IMG/VR virus record: IMGVR_UViG_3300037484_000914
Origin: a virus
Reading direction: 5' to 3' (one strand)
Length of the DNA: 52,886 nucleotides
Each line of letters begins with the position of its first letter. Position 1 is the stretch's first letter. The notes beneath the pieces were generated by a model that saw only the letters and a list, made by a program, of their open reading frames with translations, had not been told where the DNA came from and did not search any database. Positions 32,735 to 36,602 of the stretch are shown here, one piece after another. Both the position numbers and the translations under genes were made by a program.

Positions 32735-32812
32735 TGGCCTCCGGGGCAGGATTCGAACCTGCGAATACCAGATTGGGTAACGAAGTAGTCCCATACTGCA
32801 CCACTGTCTATT
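32735..32812 (-). ncRNA. tRNA-like element (T-arm GCAGG-TTCGAAT-CCTGC + CCA) without a matching 5' acceptor strand
   Basis: hand fold fails for the acceptor; begins with the repeat AGTGGTGCAGTATGGGACTACTTCG. Confidence 0.3.
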
Positions 32813-34367
32813 TTCTTTTTACAACGGGGAAGTAGGCGAGAAGGGGGTTTTTTGCTAAGCTTCACCCGGCATAGAGTTTGAGCCGGGGAGGGGAGTTGAA
32901 CCCCTAATCTTCAACTTATGTGGTTGTTGCTTTACCGATGTATCCCTAGTCTAGCACCACCGCTGTTATTTTCTTGTGGACATGGTGTACGGTGCCCATG
33001 TCCGCCGACGTTCGCGTGCTTAAGTTTTATTAAATATTGTGTTGTCGTCGTACGCCAAGCGCCAGCCGTTTCGTGCACCCGTACTATTACACTCTTCCGT
33101 AGGCGCGGATGGCCAAAGTAAGGCGGGTTTACACATCACCGCCCATTTTTAGTTTCCCTTAGGTTTTGCCTCCGGTGTGCTCCGGCGCGTCCAGGGTCAC
33201 AGTGTTTTTTATGTCGTGGGGAAGCGGTCGTAAGACTTCTGTTACGGTGCTCTTCCTGACTGAGCTATACCCCCATAGTGTCGGGAGCAACGGGATTCGA
33301 ACCCGTGACCTACGGCTTGACATGCGAAGAAATTCTCACTGTCACCACCACGGCAATATATGGCTCTCGGCGGGTCCGTAAGGGCCCTTTCGGCATATCC
33401 CATCGAGTGGGACCGAGCTTTATTTCTTCGGAGGAAAGGTTTCATTAACGCCCTGCCTACATAGTAGGACAGCCTCTCCACAGCGAAGCCCTTTATACTT
33501 GTTGCACTTGCTTAGGTGCAGGTCATCAATACCCAGGCTTCACGTCTCTGGTCGACGGCGGGTCGGTATGTTGTGTGATACCCGCGTTGGTATTGGGGGA
33601 AAACTAAGACATGGCTGCGGCTGCTTATTATTTAACGTGCTCAAGCAGTGATAGAAGCACGGGTAGACATTTAACGTGTAACCACAGCACGGACTGTTCA
33701 TGATGACCTATTTCTAGGACTTGTGGCCATAGCAACCCAGTCACGGTACCACCGTTTACATCATTCGAAGAAGCCTGTCTAGCACCACCCAATTCGAATA
33801 TTTATACAGAGGGAAGTAGTCGCAAGAGCGACTGCCAGCCACCATGGCTTAAAGGGACTCGAACCCTATCGCGATTTTAACAGAATCGAAGTAACTCTTA
33901 CTGTCACCACTCTGCATTTATTTCGGTACTCGACCGCAGTAGACTAACCCTACGGTCTGCTGTTGTTCCTCTCAACTTGTGCGCACTGGAGAGGCAGCCG
34001 CTCGTCTTTGGATGTCGGGCGAAGCTAGCTTCACTTCGCTTTTCCTGTCCTTTCTGAGCTAGTCGAGCATATTTTTGGATGCTGGGGGCGGGCGACTAAC
34101 CCCGCGTAATTAGCCGTTACTCTACTCATAGCGCTCTGTCAGACGACCGCTCGTCGCTAGATGGTTCCGGTCTTTTCTGAGCTACCCCAGCTATAATCTT
34201 AAATAGTGTCTAGTCTGCTATCGAAAACAGATGCGGCCTTCTATTACCAAAGGCACGGTTCCAAATTTACATCCGGGAGCGCGAAGCATCGACGGACGGC
34301 TGGAGTCGAACCAGCAACCCACCCTACGAGTGGCACCAACCTAGCTAGACACGTAAACGAATTCTTT

Positions 34368-34437
34368 TGGTGGCGTGCGAAGGAGTTAAACCTCCGTAGC
34401 CGTCCCTAATCAGGGGACAGCTAAGAACGCTCACGCC
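34368..34437 (-). tRNA. tRNA-Ile(GAT)-like with shortened D-arm
   Basis: anticodon arm gtccc-ctgatta-gggac, T-arm ggagg-TTTAACT-ccttc, acceptor GGCGTGA/GCACGCC with one mismatch, CCA encoded; only 67 nt before the CCA. Confidence 0.4.
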
Positions 34438-34555
34438 ATTGGCTCCTCGTGCGGGACTCAAACCACGCTTTCTTCCCCTTTAGAGATGTTCTTACAAGAA
34501 CTAATTTCTTCTCTAATCAAGAGATGTTCTTTCCTAGAAACTACCGAGGAATAAA

Positions 34556-34738
34556 TCACTTACCTAATAGGATGAATCCACCAGCAGCAACAGCGAGTAT
34601 CGCCAAGCCGGATTGAACCATCACTACAGATGTAGGTGCAAGGTGCAGCTGGCCGCTAATTAAGAAGAAGATGCCTCCTAAAATAAGCAGCAGAGCAAGT
34701 AACACCAAGCCTATGTTTTTGATAAAATTGATGTCCAT
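34556..34738 (-). CDS. small two-TM membrane protein (uncertain)
   Basis: hydrophobic 60-aa ORF within the RNA island. Confidence 0.25.
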   Translation of the reverse strand: MDINFIKNIGLVLLALLLILGGIFFLISGQLHLAPTSVVMVQSGLAILAVAAGGFILLGK

Positions 34739-35621
34739 TTTTACCTCTTATGTTTATATCGGGGAATGTAATGAGCGGGGTGTGGTCTCTGAACGATGTA
34801 ACCCCGGTCGTCACCACCGATATTGATTTACTGTGAACATTAGGGAAGGGGCGAACTGGCCTTTTTGTTATTGAAAACGAAGGATTCCAGTCCTACACCA
34901 CTAATGTCCTATGAAGAAAGGAGGTGACTCAGATACCTCTCAAGGGATTAAAAGAAAATAGCCTCACCTTCCACCTCAAAAGGTTCAGGAGTATTTATTG
35001 CTATCCTCTTGGTACTCCCTCTTGAAGTACCCTCGTACCCTCAAATATAGTACCCTTGAGGGGTAAAGATAAATATTAAATATCTATCTTATATAAGGCG
35101 TGCTATTAGCACTATAACTAAGACGATTACCAGTATCTCTATTATTCCCATCTGCTTTACCTGCCTATGAAGATAAGAACACCAGCCACAATAGCAAGTA
35201 TTCCTAGCAAGACGTGTAGAACCGGGTTGCCTACCGATAGAACGACACAGATGCCGCTTATGATAAGCCAGATTGCTAGTAATAGTAAGCCCCAACTTCC
35301 TTGTATAGTCATTTTCTTATACCTCCATCCAAACATAAAGGTGTTGATATTATCTCTACTTTATATTTGGCAGATGGTCAGTAAAATACCAGGGAAGCGG
35401 CGTAATGAACTTTGTCCTTGCGGACTCTGGAATCGAACCAGTTTCATTGTTTTTGAGACAATTGTGTTACCATTTCACGATGAAGTTCACCACTATCACC
35501 ACTGATATCTATCTGTTGTTAAAGGGTGCAGTTATTTCGTCATGCACCAGGACGGCATTGGCTACCTTTCGGCACCTAGCTATTGTTTATTGAGGGAAGA
35601 GGCGATGTGGCCTTATGTTGC

Positions 35622-35697
35622 ACTTTTGCTCTACCAGACTGAGCTACACGGCCATAGTTGGTGGCCGCGACACGGATTCGAACCGGTGACCTAAAGT
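35622..35697 (-). ncRNA. apparent circularly permuted tRNA gene (3' half - ACTAT - 5' half)
   Basis: minus-strand order: acttt-aggtc-caccgg-TTCGAAT-ccgtg-TCGCGGCC-A-CCA-actat-GGCCGTG-t-a-GCTC-AGTCTGGTAG-GAGC-a-AAAGT. The two acceptor strands pair 7/7 (one G.U), and the anticodon-stem halves aaagt/acttt pair 5/5 only if the 5' half is placed upstream of the 3' half. Confidence 0.45.
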
Positions 35698-36450
35698 TTC
35701 TATTGCGAAGGATTCCACTTCTGCACCACTCAATATTTATTTCTTGTGGGGGAGCGACCCCCAATCTTCGAATCCACCTCAGACCTGCTACCGGTCCCGC
35801 CAATCTGTAAGGCAGAAGCGTCGATTTTTTATACGAGGGAAGAGGCGGGTAGGTACATTTACAGCCCTTTTAGGGCCGTCCCGTGGTTTGAAACGAAGTA
35901 TCCCTACTCTACACCACTCGTATTTATTTTCTTGTGCATGAACCCATTTGAGGGAAGCTAGCGAAAAGGGCAAGTGATTTTTAAATTAACGACCCACTCG
36001 TCGCCGTAGCGGAGCGCAATCTATTAATCTTGCAGGTTTCGATAACGCCTGCTATTGCCTTTGTCTTTAGTTATGTATTGAAGTATCCCTTCTCTACACC
36101 ACTCGGGCTTCGTAAGCCTGCTGTTGGTTCATGCCTATGTAGTCAACCTTTCATGCAAATAGGCAAGTCAAAAGAAATTTAGGGGACTTTCCTGTCAGTG
36201 TCTCATATTCCTTTGTTTTGGCCTCCGAGACAGATGTGCATTATTTGGCTGCTAATAGCTTGGTCCGCGCCCCTAGCTTTAGGCTAGGGAATGTTTTAAG
36301 CGCGGTTAATGGTGGCCGCCTTTCCTGGGGTTCGAACCCAGGCCACTTAAATCCTTACTTACTGCCCAGGGATAGAACTGTCGATTATAAGCTTAACTAT
36401 ATAAACAGCTTTCGTTAAATAAGCTCCTCCAACCAGACTAAAGGCGATAA

Positions 36451-36533
36451 TGGTGGGCCGCCCTGGATTTGAACCAGGAATGCCGAAGCGCCGAGGTTAC
36501 AGCTCGGTGGTTTACCGTTCACCCAACGACCCA
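36451..36533 (-). tRNA. tRNA-Tyr(GTA), class II
   Basis: acceptor GGGTCGT/GCGGCCC (two G.U), anticodon arm ccgag-ctgtaac-ctcgg, variable hairpin with a cttcgg loop, T-loop GGTTCAAATCC, CCA encoded. Confidence 0.6.
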
Positions 36534-36602
36534 TTAAAGGGGACAAAGGCATATGCACTAAAGGGACGTTGTCACGCGTGATTAGCCCTTATCCCACACT
36601 GC

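What the first reader, a model, noticed from the sequence alone, without database searches (positions are those of the whole stretch)
32735..36600. About 3.8 kb RNA island: tRNA-like elements lacking proper acceptor pairing, with two repeated sequence families
Between tRNA-His and the next protein gene there is almost no credible ORF. The region contains many T-arm signatures (GGTTCGAATCC-type) attached to bodies that do not close into cloverleaves by hand. Examples are 32735-32812; 32880-32960; 33820-33900 with Asn-like anticodon arm cgatt-ctgttaa-aatcg; 34290-34370; 35400-35470 with arm attgt-ctcaaaa-acaat.
Interspersed are two motif families:
- on the plus strand [A/T-rich]-GAGGGAAG-nnGnCG at 32826, 33801, 34815, 35586, 35823, 35945;
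- on the minus strand GAGTGGTG-yAGAG-tAGGGATACTTCG at about 32788, 33855, 35700, 35890, 36080.
Bona fide tRNAs (Tyr-GTA at 36451-36533, a short-D-arm Ile-GAT at 34368-34437) are embedded among them.
This looks like a family of structured ncRNAs that are tRNA-derived or tRNA-mimicking (possible ligands of the TROVE protein, or split/permuted tRNAs) rather than a simple tRNA array.
Basis: seen in the sequence. Interest (0 to 1): 0.75.

Follow-up and report, generated by a model that had tools for sequence, protein, structure and literature searches.

The report
Phage array of eleven Y RNAs
The "RNA island" is a cluster of eleven Y-RNA-like genes, the small RNAs that partner the ring-shaped Ro60/TROVE protein encoded 5 kb away, sitting inside a phage tRNA array; the RNA class is known, but this is the largest and most varied cluster among the contigs examined here.

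Summary
Window 32668-36106 (minus strand) holds 11 units (A-K, 64-200 nt). Each has a closing helix P1, a conserved internal loop (5' GGUG-N1-3-AG; 3' CGNC-N1-3-CUUCC), a second helix P2 and a variable apical module. P1 and P2 covary among the 11 copies. Covariance models built only from RNAs lying beside TROVE genes in other phage and metagenome contigs detect 10 of the 11 units (E 3e-20 to 1e-4). The 5' module corresponds to the GNCGAAN0-1G + YUAY signature of bacterial YrlA Y RNAs. Units C, I and K carry the YrlA permuted tRNA-like core (T arm, 7-bp acceptor-like stem, D arm), and C and K encode CCA. G and J are partial, D is a non-permuted cloverleaf, and A, B, E, F and H lack tRNA features. 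A TROVE+vWA (Ro60) gene lies at 25826-27382 on the same strand; its best solved relative is Thermus phage phiLo Ro60. These are Ro60-ligand Y RNAs, not split tRNAs or tRNA pseudogenes. Related phages carry 2-6 such RNAs beside the Ro60 gene. Here there are 11, displaced 5-10 kb into a tRNA array. This is a new variant of a known kind. Ro60 binding and expression are inferred.

The parts
35948..36106 (-). Y RNA-like unit A (159 nt). 5' GAGUGGUGUAG; 3' CGCUAGCUUCCCUC. Long non-tRNA apical module.
   Evidence: R2 25.6 bits, E 4e-5. P2 AGAAGGG/CCCUUUU, -12.5 kcal/mol. The variable part of P1 has only 2 bp.
35833..35921 (-). Unit B (89 nt). The apical part is two small hairpins with no tRNA features.
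   Evidence: R1 41.1 bits, E 3.7e-8. R2 39.9 bits.
35590..35733 (-). Unit C (144 nt). YrlA-type permuted tRNA-like core: variable AGGUC, T arm, CGCGGCC-A-CCA, ACUAU, GGCCGUG, UA, D arm.
   Evidence: R2 81.9 bits, E 2.9e-20. Rfam YrlA core 32.3 bits, E 2.7e-4. Sequence read.
35388..35506 (-). Unit D (119 nt). Non-permuted cloverleaf on a 10-bp P2: D arm, anticodon-like arm (loop CUCAAAA), T arm, extra GCAA hairpin.
   Evidence: Rfam tRNA 32.5 bits, model positions 10-63. R2 24.0 bits, E 1e-4. Constrained fold.
34839..34905 (-). Unit E (67 nt). Short YrlB-like hairpin form.
   Evidence: R1 41.1 bits, E 3.6e-8. R2 36.8 bits.
34758..34821 (-). Unit F (64 nt). Short form; 3' motif variant CAUUCCCCG.
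   Evidence: R1 36.4 bits, E 5.6e-7. R2 31.0 bits.
33807..33914 (-). Unit G (108 nt). Anticodon-like hairpin CGAUU-CUGUUAA-AAUCG, T arm, 5-bp acceptor-like hairpin, no D arm.
   Evidence: R2 40.8 bits, E 3.4e-9. R1 17.2 bits.
33593..33792 (-). Unit H (200 nt). Same 5' and 3' modules (3' variant UAGUUUUCCCCC) with a ~150-nt non-tRNA insert. The least certain unit.
   Evidence: Not detected by R1 or R2. P1 has 4/4 variable pairs. P2 AGACA-GGC/GCCAUGUCU, -11.4 kcal/mol, best in its row.
33215..33352 (-). Unit I (138 nt). YrlA-type permuted tRNA-like core with a 7-bp acceptor-like stem; the loop is GACACUAU, with no CCA.
   Evidence: R2 74.4 bits, E 3.1e-18. Rfam YrlA core 33 bits, E 1.7e-4.
32823..32964 (-). 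Unit J (142 nt). T arm, 6-7-bp acceptor-like stem, degenerate D arm.
   Evidence: R2 27.9 bits, E 1e-5. Rfam tRNA partial hit 18.3 bits.
32668..32808 (-). Unit K (141 nt). YrlA-type core: T arm, CCCGGAG-G-CCA-AAAC-CGCCGGG, D-like arm.
   Evidence: R2 68.1 bits, E 1.5e-16. Rfam YrlA 19.3 bits over the full model.
25826..27382 (-). Ro60 orthologue (TROVE + vWA), the presumed protein partner. The true start is probably downstream of the listed GTG, because that start overlaps tRNA-Leu.
   Evidence: Pfam TROVE 6.7e-12 and VWA_2 1.3e-4. PHROG 850, 1.9e-30. Best PDB matches 9L5Y/9KOP, Thermus phage phiLo Ro60, E 5.8e-12.
36451..36532 (-). tRNA-Tyr(GTA), the upstream boundary of the island.
   Evidence: ARAGORN. 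Rfam 50.8 bits.
32547..32624 (-). tRNA-His(GTG), the downstream boundary of the island.
   Evidence: ARAGORN. Rfam 52.1 bits.

Best explanation
The island is an array of eleven paralogous genes for Y RNA-like noncoding RNAs, the RNA partners of Ro60/TROVE proteins. It lies inside the tRNA gene array of what is probably a large phage.

Each RNA has a common 'handle':
- A closing helix P1, made of 4 variable pairs plus G5-C79, a bulged U6, G7-C78 and G8-C77.
- A conserved asymmetric internal loop. The 5' side is GGUG-N1-3-AG, the local form of the YrlA GNCGAAN0-1G motif. The 3' side is CGNC-N1-3-CUUCC.
- A second helix P2, followed by (A/U)UAC-UUCG.

By analogy with characterised Y RNAs, this handle is the docking site for the phage Ro60 ring encoded 5.3 kb downstream on the same strand.

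The apical module differs from unit to unit:
- Three units (C, I, K) have full permuted tRNA mimics, two with an encoded CCA (C and K).
- Two units (G, J) have partial mimics.
- One unit (D) has a normal-order cloverleaf.
- Three units (A, B, H) have unrelated structured inserts.
- Two units (E, F) are short hairpins.

The inferred mechanism is that one protein is programmed by a set of interchangeable RNA adaptors. These would gate its cavity and tether it to different partners, such as host PNPase or other exoribonucleases and tRNA-recognising enzymes. The RNAs would be made and trimmed together with the neighbouring tRNAs.

Shown here: family membership by sequence and structure, covariation of the handle, and genomic association with TROVE genes. 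Inferred: expression, Ro60 binding, processing and partner tethering.
For: (1) Units and architecture. There are 11 co-oriented units. In P1, 97.4% of cells pair and the covariation score is 0.69, against 0.18 for shuffles (0/500 as high) and 0.02-0.17 for slid controls. Mean P2 duplex energy is -9.8 kcal/mol for cognate pairs and -4.9 for non-cognate pairs.

(2) The same RNA sits next to TROVE genes elsewhere. The 5'-motif pattern found 65 viral contigs. In 54 of the motif matches in those contigs a correctly placed 3' partner follows (54 distinct RNAs). Of the 68 loci fetched by then, 43 carry a TROVE homologue within the fetched stretch.

(3) Loci fetched through the protein alone. Of the loci with at least about 150 nt available upstream of the TROVE match, those with TROVE at 53-63% identity have 1-3 model hits in tandem directly upstream of the gene on the same strand. 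In the alignment of those hits, 98% of cells pair, 14 of 15 pairs show compensatory change, and covariation is 0.95 against 0.23 for shuffles. The otherwise invariant inner P1 pairs also change together: GUGCUG..UUGCC, GUAGUG..UUCUCC, AUGG..UUCCU.

(4) Independent models. Models trained only on other contigs hit the window, and every significant hit to the handle is on the minus strand. R1 detects E, B and F at E 4e-8 to 6e-7. R2 detects C, I, K, G, B, E, F, J, A and D at E 3e-20 to 1e-4.

(5) Link to the described family. The Rfam YrlA core hits C and I at E ~2e-4. The YrlA consensus has the same stem / internal loop / GGG..CUAC / ..CUUG.. layout. The published YrlA signature is GNCGAAN0-1G, YUAY, then V, T, AS and D arms, on the same strand as rsr (PMC4201824).

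(6) Protein partner. A TROVE+vWA ORF lies on the same strand. Its best solved relative is phage phiLo Ro60. That protein binds two Y RNA-like RNAs encoded upstream of its gene and forms a complex with host PNPase (PMC12135203).
Against: - There are no expression or binding data.
- The island lies 5.3-10.7 kb from the TROVE gene. The published criterion is within 4 kb, and related phages place these RNAs within a few hundred nt.
- No unit has the literal CGAA of the published motif.
- No unit reaches the Rfam YrlA gathering score (best 33 bits, against 69).
- Unit H is not detected by either model, and unit A has a weak P1.
- No sigma-70-like promoters or intrinsic terminators are enriched in the region, so the transcription units are unknown.
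- The two closest relatives of the TROVE gene (80% identity) are on contigs that end before an island could be seen. Conservation of the 11-unit array itself is therefore untested.
Confidence: 0.85

Rival explanations
1. The units are decaying tRNA genes: pseudogenes and fragments left by duplication and recombination within the tRNA array, with no function of their own.
For: The island lies inside a 29-gene tRNA array. It contains clear tRNA debris outside the units: a T arm plus GGCGGCCACCA without a 5' partner at ~36345-36310, and a degenerate tRNA-like stretch at ~34345-34275. T and D arms of the units resemble the array's tRNAs only at generic consensus positions.
Against: The conserved parts of the units are the non-tRNA 5' and 3' modules. 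These pair with each other through compensatory changes among the paralogues. They are homologous to RNAs next to TROVE genes in many unrelated contigs. Five units have no tRNA features at all. Decay would not preserve P1 and P2.
Confidence: 0.04
2. The units are circularly permuted or split tRNA genes. After processing at the acceptor loop (RNase P cleavage, CCA end) they would yield functional decoding tRNAs, as in the red alga Cyanidioschyzon merolae.
For: Units C, I and K have the order T arm, acceptor 3' strand, loop, acceptor 5' strand, D arm, with 7-bp acceptor-like stems. C and K carry CCA at positions 74-76. A tRNA-like permuted element with CCA also occurs at 52396-52312. M. smegmatis YrlA is cleaved by RNase P and receives CCA (PMC4201824).
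Against: C, I and K have no anticodon loop. The two strands of the 'anticodon stem' continue into P3, P2 and P1 of the Y RNA handle. Only 3 of the 11 units have this core. ARAGORN and the Rfam tRNA model do not call them. The handle is the TROVE-linked module.
Confidence: 0.03
3. The units act mainly in cis, as processing or punctuation and stabilising elements for a long polycistronic tRNA/mRNA transcript. RNase P or RNase Z sites would separate the small ORFs and tRNAs, independently of Ro60.
For: All features are co-oriented and no promoter or terminator enrichment is seen. Small ORFs follow units D and F directly. The trailer CAAGAAA that follows many tRNA CCA ends also precedes units B, C and J.
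Against: This does not explain the tight linkage of the same RNA to TROVE genes in other genomes that have no tRNA arrays or small ORFs nearby. Nor does it explain conservation of the internal-loop sequence. The two roles are not mutually exclusive.
Confidence: 0.06

Closest known systems
YrlA (Y RNA-like A; Rfam RF02553) of Salmonella Typhimurium, Mycobacterium smegmatis and other bacteria and mycobacteriophages (Chen et al. 2014, PMC4201824)
   Same: - The 5' and 3' ends form a stem with a large internal loop.
- A 5'-strand motif of the GNCGAAN0-1G type is followed by GGG-YUAY.
- In units C, I and K the apical domain is a permuted tRNA mimic (V, T arm, acceptor-like stem-loop, D arm).
- The RNAs are encoded on the same strand as a Ro60 orthologue.
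- As in M. smegmatis YrlA, the acceptor-like stem is 7 bp.
   Different: - The motif is GGUG-N1-3-AG, with no CGAA.
- The 3' strand (CGNC..CUUCC) is also conserved and pairs, whereas only the 5' strand was recognisable in Salmonella and M. smegmatis.
- All scores fall below the Rfam gathering score (at most 33 bits, against 69).
- The RNAs lie 5-10 kb from the gene, not within 4 kb.
- There are eleven copies.
- CCA is encoded in two units rather than added after transcription.
Yrl1 and Yrl2 with phiRo60 of Thermus phage phiLo (NAR 2025, PMC12135203; PDB 9L5Y, 9KOP)
   Same: A phage-encoded Ro60 with phage-encoded Y RNA-like partners of stem / bulge / stem design. phiRo60 is the closest solved relative of the window's TROVE protein. 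It is the experimental precedent for Ro60 binding and for recruitment of host PNPase.
   Different: - phiLo has two RNAs immediately upstream of the gene and a CGAA motif.
- The window has eleven RNAs with diversified tRNA-like modules, set in a tRNA array.
- The protein match is weak in sequence (phmmer E 5.8e-12, 48 bits over residues 92-516).
YrlB / Yrn2-type short Y RNAs
   Same: Units E, F and B are short hairpin forms (64-89 nt) that carry the same handle but no tRNA-like domain. This parallels the second, simpler Y RNA found in each characterised bacterium.
   Different: The published YrlB and Yrn2 have small pyrimidine-rich loops. The short phage forms here have A-rich apical regions.
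Deinococcus radiodurans Yrn1
   Same: Unit D has its tRNA-like elements in normal order (D arm, anticodon-like arm, T arm), with the Ro60-binding stem taking the place of the acceptor stem. This is the orientation described for Yrn1 (PMC4201824).
   Different: Unit D carries the YrlA-type handle, not the metazoan-like GGUCCGA helix of Yrn1. It also has a 7-nt anticodon-like loop and an extra hairpin. No sequence homology to Yrn1 was tested.
Circularly permuted tRNA genes (Cyanidioschyzon merolae); resemblance recalled from general knowledge, not tested
   Same: The 3' half precedes the 5' half, joined through the acceptor ends.
   Different: Those genes keep an anticodon loop and are processed into real tRNAs. 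Here the anticodon loop is replaced by the Y RNA handle.

Membership tests
YrlA / bacterial Y RNA (Chen et al. 2014; Rfam RF02553) | Scores at or above the Rfam RF02553 gathering threshold (69 bits). | tested here: not met
   The best window hits are 33.0 and 32.3 bits, covering the core only (model positions 23-87), and 19.3 bits over the full length. TROVE-adjacent homologues in other phage contigs also reach only 31-43 bits.
YrlA / bacterial Y RNA | GNCGAAN0-1G motif near the 5' end (the putative Ro60 contact). | tested here: inconclusive
   None of the 11 units has CGAA. They have GGUG(U/C)AG, GGUGACAG, GGUGCUAG, GGUGAUAG or GGUGACG at the homologous position. In the wider family the same columns vary among GGCGAAG, GGUGAAG, GGCGUAG and GGUGUAG. 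The window forms therefore lie at the edge of a continuum rather than matching the literal motif.
YrlA / bacterial Y RNA | The 5' and 3' ends pair to form a long stem interrupted by a large internal loop. | tested here: met
   P1 and P2 are supported by compensatory changes both within the window and in relatives.
YrlA / bacterial Y RNA | Conserved YUAY after the stem, at the start of the V region. | tested here: inconclusive
   UUAC (F, G) and CUAC (K) fit YUAY. AUAC (A, B, J) shares only the UAC. AUCC (C, E), UUUC (I) and CUUC (H) fit less well, and D is not comparable. UUAC or AUAC is nearly invariant in relatives, partly because the search pattern imposed it.
YrlA / bacterial Y RNA | tRNA-like domain with T arm, acceptor-like stem-loop and D arm in permuted order. 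| tested here: met
   Met for units C, I and K: R2 68-82 bits with all helices aligned, plus Rfam core hits. Partly met for G and J. Not met for A, B, D, E, F and H; these correspond to YrlB-like forms or, for D, a Yrn1-like form.
YrlA / bacterial Y RNA | Encoded within ~4 kb of a Ro60 (TROVE) orthologue, on the same DNA strand. | tested here: inconclusive
   The strand is the same. The distance from the TROVE ORF (25826-27382) is 5.3 kb to unit K and 8.6-8.7 kb to unit A, with ORFs and tRNAs in between. Relatives keep the RNAs within a few hundred nt of the gene.
YrlA / bacterial Y RNA | Bound and stabilised by Ro60/Rsr in vivo; carries tRNA-type modifications and can be an RNase P substrate. 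| not testable with these tools
   This needs RIP or EMSA, primer extension and RNase P assays.
Canonical tRNA | Cloverleaf with a paired 7-bp acceptor stem closing the molecule, a 7-nt anticodon loop, and detection by tRNA finders. | tested here: not met
   ARAGORN calls nothing in 32625-36450. The Rfam tRNA model gives only partial hits in units D and J.

The most novel reading that the evidence does not exclude
The island is a diversified library of adaptors. A single Ro60-binding handle has been fused to many different tRNA-derived modules: permuted and non-permuted forms, some with encoded CCA ends and anticodon-like loops. This would let a phage Ro60 RNP engage several tRNA-recognising host factors, such as anticodon nucleases, RNase P, the CCA-adding enzyme, modification enzymes and PNPase. 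Its role would be either as a decoy or anti-defence system, or as a quality-control and repair platform protecting the phage's own large tRNA set.

A corollary concerns origin. Permuted YrlA-type modules may arise from junctions between tandem tRNA genes inside such arrays. The R2 core hits the Gly-Gly, Asn-Asn, Pro-Leu and Met-Ile junctions and a free permuted element at 52396-52312.
Probability: 0.15. Interest if true: 0.8.

Novelty: new variant of a known kind. Interest (0 to 1): 0.5.

Why it matters
Y RNAs are known as Ro60 partners, with two to four per organism in the cases studied. How their variable modules choose partners is still unclear. The tRNA mimicry of bacterial Y RNAs also has no agreed function.

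This locus is a natural experiment on those questions. It offers one Ro60 gene and eleven RNAs that share a covariation-proven handle but carry very different heads. The heads include both tRNA-mimic topologies and two encoded CCA ends. All of this sits inside a phage tRNA array.

If the RNAs are expressed, the locus would allow direct tests of which head recruits which protein. It would also allow a test of whether phage Ro60 RNPs serve tRNA protection or counter-defence.

The survey done here also suggests that arrays of 3-6 Y RNAs beside phage TROVE genes are common in metagenomic phages, and that the Rfam YrlA model misses them at its gathering threshold.

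Tried and rejected
- **D-arm reading of the 5' motif.** I first read GUGGUG-UA-GAGU-AGGGAUA-CUUC as acceptor strand plus D arm. 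I also considered a pseudoknot between the GGGA loop and UCCC. Both were rejected. The short homologues show that the GGG pairs with a CCC just upstream of the 3' motif (P2), with strong covariation.
- **Unconstrained MFE folds** of the units were inconsistent with one another. Constraining P1 recovered P2 in most units.
- **nhmmer profiles** of the 5' and 3' modules alone were too short to be sensitive: only units A and B were significant.
- **Close relatives of the island were not found.**
  - Megablast of window 25000-40000 (the island, the TROVE gene and their surroundings) against INPHARED phages: no match.
  - A window-specific 5' pattern in IMG/VR: no match.
  - Exact-protein lookup of a neighbouring ORF: not on record.
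  - The two 80%-identical TROVE loci end 0.6 and 1.7 kb upstream of the gene.
- **X1/X2 motif** TAGCTCAGAAARGACNGGAA: no match in the fetched loci or in IMG/VR.
- **Promoter and terminator scan:** no enrichment.
- **Spacer folding z-scores** were unremarkable, -0.2 to -2.5.
- **BLAST of unit modules against the window's own tRNAs** showed only generic T-arm and D-arm similarity, so recent derivation from a particular tRNA is not supported.
- **Literature gaps.** Two reviews (PMC10870794, PMC6047535) and the supplements of Chen et al. 2014 are not held. I could not check whether multi-copy phage arrays were tabulated there.

Full report
**Setting**

The window carries 29 ARAGORN tRNAs between 23.7 and 52.1 kb, all on the minus strand and interspersed with minus-strand ORFs. 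PHROG hits to a DNA helicase and a polymerase suggest a large phage. So does the fact that several of the TROVE gene's closer relatives lie on IMG/VR viral contigs of 65-388 kb. Megablast against the phage collection found nothing.

Between tRNA-His (32547-32624) and tRNA-Tyr (36451-36532) no canonical tRNA is called. The only hit is a partial tRNA match at 35427-35478.

**The observation**

- The 5' motif is RGUGGUG, then 1-4 nt, then AG, then about 12 nt, then (U/A)UCG.
- The 3' motif is CGNC, then 1-3 nt, then CUUCCC.

I count eleven units, A to K, between 36106 and 32668.

Unit boundaries were set by one fixed rule: the 4 nt before the invariant G of GUGG and the 4 nt after the first UUCCC. 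Under that rule the flanks pair in 10 of 11 units, and the paired sequences differ between units. On the spliced alignment:
- 97.4% of P1 cells pair.
- The covariation score is 0.69, against 0.18 for shuffles (0/500 as high).
- Slid controls give 0.02-0.17.

A second helix, P2, joins the segment after the 5' motif to the segment before the 3' motif. Cognate 5'/3' pairs fold at -9.8 kcal/mol on average, non-cognate pairs at -4.9.

A strict descriptor finds 7 hits on the minus strand against 0.2 in shuffles. The single hit outside the island is a chance match.

**What the unit is**

An Rfam scan by E-value gave sub-threshold YrlA (Y RNA-like, RF02553) hits to the cores of units I and C (33 and 32 bits, E ~2e-4) and a weak full-length hit to K.

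A TROVE+vWA ORF, an Ro60 orthologue, lies at 25826-27382 on the same strand. Its best solved relative is the Ro60 of Thermus phage phiLo.

Three IMG/VR relatives of that protein (54-61% identity) carry the same RNA motif directly upstream of the gene.

A degenerate 5'-motif pattern then found 65 viral contigs.
- In 54 of the motif matches in those contigs, a UUCCY 3' motif follows, flanked by the complement of the 3 nt that precede GUGG (54 distinct RNAs).
- Of the 68 loci fetched by then, 43 contain a TROVE homologue within the fetched stretch.

The short (~60-75 nt) forms align cleanly and reveal the architecture:
- P1 consists of 4 variable pairs plus G5-C79, a bulged U6, G7-C78 and G8-C77.
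- The internal loop has YGAA on the 5' side and GYUUGUU on the 3' side.
- P2 follows, with GGG pairing to CCC, and then UUAC-UUC.

Because P1 complementarity was part of my filter for that set, I repeated the test on RNAs found in a different way. Loci were fetched through TROVE protein homology and then searched with model R1. In that alignment:
- 98% of cells pair.
- 14 of 15 pairs show compensatory changes.
- Covariation is 0.95, against 0.23 for shuffles and 0.10-0.20 for slid controls.

Even the nearly invariant inner pairs change together in some relatives: GUGCUG..UUGCC, GUAGUG..UUCUCC, AUGG..UUCCU, CUGG..UUCCG.

**Independent detection in the window**

Two covariance models were built only from sequences in other contigs.
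- R1 (short forms) detects units E, B and F at E 4e-8 to 6e-7, and G at 0.04.
- R2 was built from 21 long tRNA-like forms. Their consensus has P1, P2, a 5-bp T arm, a 7-bp acceptor-like stem and a D arm, and 21 of 31 pairs show compensatory change.

R2 scores in the window:

| Unit | Bits | E-value |
|---|---|---|
| C | 81.9 | 3e-20 |
| I | 74.4 | 3e-18 |
| K | 68.1 | 1.5e-16 |
| G | 40.8 | 3.4e-9 |
| B | 39.9 | 6.1e-9 |
| E | 36.8 | 4.1e-8 |
| F | 31.0 | 1.5e-6 |
| J | 27.9 | 1e-5 |
| A | 25.6 | 4e-5 |
| D | 24.0 | 1e-4 |

All are on the minus strand. Unit H has a 150-nt insert and is missed by both models, but it has the motifs, a 4/4 variable P1 and the best P2 in its row.

**Relation to the published family**

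Chen et al. 2014 (PMC4201824) define YrlA by these features:
- a GNCGAAN0-1G motif near the 5' end, the probable Rsr contact;
- a YUAY that begins the V region;
- then V, T, acceptor-like and D arms;
- a location within 4 kb of rsr on the same strand.

They found such RNAs in 254 bacteria and 22 phages, with at least two Y RNAs in each species they characterised.

The family recovered here has GUGG(C/U)GAAG...GGG-UUAC-UUC, which is that signature. The window's copies carry GGUG-N1-3-AG at the same place. The Rfam consensus shows the same stem / loop / GGG..CUAC / ..CUUG.. layout.

Many are Acidobacteriota. The handle is therefore a widespread bacterial and phage Y RNA module, not a phage novelty.

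Phage Ro60 binding to phage-encoded Y RNA-like RNAs, and recruitment of host PNPase, has been shown for Thermus phage phiLo (PMC12135203).

**The heads**

With P1 constrained, the folds and direct reading of the sequence give the following.
- **C, I, K:** complete permuted tRNA mimics, equivalent to tRNA positions ~39-76, a short spacer, then positions 1-31. The acceptor-like stems are 7 bp.
  - C reads CGCGGCC-A-CCA-ACUAU-GGCCGUG.
  - K reads CCCGGAG-G-CCA-AAAC-CGCCGGG.
  - Both therefore encode CCA at positions 74-76, as do almost all tRNAs of the array.
  - I has GACA at that place.
- **J:** T arm and acceptor-like stem, with a degenerate D arm.
- **G:** an anticodon-like hairpin (CGAUU-CUGUUAA-AAUCG), a T arm and a short acceptor-like hairpin.
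- **D:** a normal-order cloverleaf (D arm, anticodon-like arm, T arm, extra hairpin) sitting on a 10-bp P2. This is the orientation described for D. radiodurans Yrn1.
- **A, B, H:** unrelated inserts.
- **E, F:** short YrlB-like hairpins.

**How unusual it is**

Related loci usually carry 2-6 model hits in tandem, immediately next to the TROVE gene. Examples are L043 and L012 with 6 each, and several loci with 4.

The window has 11, the most seen here. They are not adjacent to the gene. Two tRNAs sit directly upstream of the TROVE ORF, as in the two closest relatives at 80% identity. The contigs of those relatives end too soon to show whether they also have an island.

I found no paper describing large Y RNA arrays in phages or within tRNA arrays. 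Two reviews and the 2014 supplements could not be read.

**Mechanism**

Shown:
- A covariation-supported common handle that is homologous to TROVE-linked RNAs.
- tRNA-mimic heads in six units: C, D, G, I, J and K.

Inferred from the characterised systems (D. radiodurans, Salmonella, M. smegmatis, phage phiLo):
- The handle docks on the phage Ro60.
- The heads gate the ring and tether it to partners.
- The units are transcribed and trimmed together with the neighbouring tRNAs.

No sigma-70 promoter or terminator signal stands out.

The rival readings are tRNA pseudogenes, split decoding tRNAs and pure processing punctuation. Each fails to explain the conserved, covarying non-tRNA handle and its linkage to TROVE genes.

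**Verdict**

The RNA class is known. The locus is a new variant in four respects: copy number, diversity of heads (both topologies, encoded CCA), motif form and genomic placement. Interest is moderate.

Noticed in passing
window 34365-34437 (-): A D-armless tRNA-like RNA. It has a 6-bp acceptor stem, an 8-nt connector, a 10-bp anticodon stem with loop CUGAUUA (GAU, Ile), and a 6-bp T stem with loop UUUAACU. It ends in ACCA followed by AAAGAA. It folds at -33.8 kcal/mol, z = -5.07. Neither ARAGORN nor Rfam calls it.
   Followed up: partly
window 34082-34190 (-) and 33929-34067 (-): Two paralogous cloverleaf-like elements, X1 and X2. Their closing stems are compensatory (CUGGGG/CCCCAG versus CUCGAC/GUCGAG). 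They share the blocks UAGCUCAGAAARGACNGGAA, GACGAGCGG and GGGUUAGUC. A GCUC...GAGC 'D stem' encloses a 26-nt or 52-nt loop. There is no Rfam hit and no match to the shared motif in IMG/VR. Their function is unknown.
   Followed up: partly
window 52312-52396 (-): An unannotated permuted tRNA-like element outside the island. Its order is T arm (GUCGG-UUCAAUU-CCGAC), CGCGCCC-U-CCA, a 10-nt spacer, GGGCGCG, then a D-like arm. It is hit by the core of model R2 (24.5 bits, E 9e-5). No recognisable Y RNA handle is present.
   Followed up: partly
window 45724-45785, 38236-38301, 27352-27437, 49733-49820 (-): Junctions between tandem tRNA genes (Gly-Gly, Asn-Asn, Pro-Leu, Met-Ile) score against the permuted tRNA-like core of the Y RNA model, at 13-24 bits. 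This fits the idea that YrlA-type heads could arise from tandem tRNA junctions. It is only a resemblance.
   Followed up: no
window, 3' flanks of many tRNAs (e.g. after 51935, 44316, 43127, 42856, 39749, 38274, 25538, 25189) and upstream of units B, C, J (35932, 35744, 32974): A recurrent trailer, CAAGAAA(G/A), directly follows the CCA of about ten tRNAs. The same CACAAGAAA(A)UAAAUA precedes three Y RNA units. It could be a processing signal, part of a duplicated cassette junction, or a ribosome-binding region for the downstream small ORFs.
   Followed up: no
window 35157-35312 (-), 35088-35150 (-), 34556-34738 (-): Small hydrophobic ORFs inside the RNA island. Two, of 51 and 60 codons, have good ribosome-binding sites and similar two-helix membrane-protein-like sequences. 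A third has 20 codons. None has a Pfam hit.
   Followed up: partly
window ~36310-36345 (-) and ~34275-34345 (-): tRNA fragments without partners. The first is a canonical T arm followed by GGCGGCC-A-CCA, with no matching 5' acceptor strand. The second is a degenerate tRNA-like stretch with a good T arm (GCUGG-UUCGACU-CCAGC) and unpaired acceptor ends.
   Followed up: partly
L003 9560-9940 (= L057; IMGVR_UViG_3300037067_016568): About seven tandem ~70-nt repeats lie just upstream of the TROVE gene. Each contains GGAGAAUAGCGUUCGUUCCCAGG, which is the Y RNA 3' module (CGYUYGUUCCC) without an obvious 5' module.
   Followed up: no
L003 9392-9466: ARAGORN calls a 'tRNA-Ser(tga)' that overlaps a Y RNA unit (9399-9520). 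The 5' handle, V hairpin and T arm of these RNAs can evidently be mis-annotated as a tRNA.
   Followed up: no
window 24089-24177 (-): ARAGORN reports a tRNA of undetermined identity with a two-base 'anticodon' (tg). It has no Rfam tRNA hit at gathering threshold.
   Followed up: no
window 43216-43620 (-), 41607-42410 (-), 29007-29741 (-): ORFs interleaved with the tRNAs include an aspartate 1-decarboxylase (PanD, Pfam 3.6e-47), a calcineurin-like phosphoesterase, and a DUF2491 protein.
   Followed up: no
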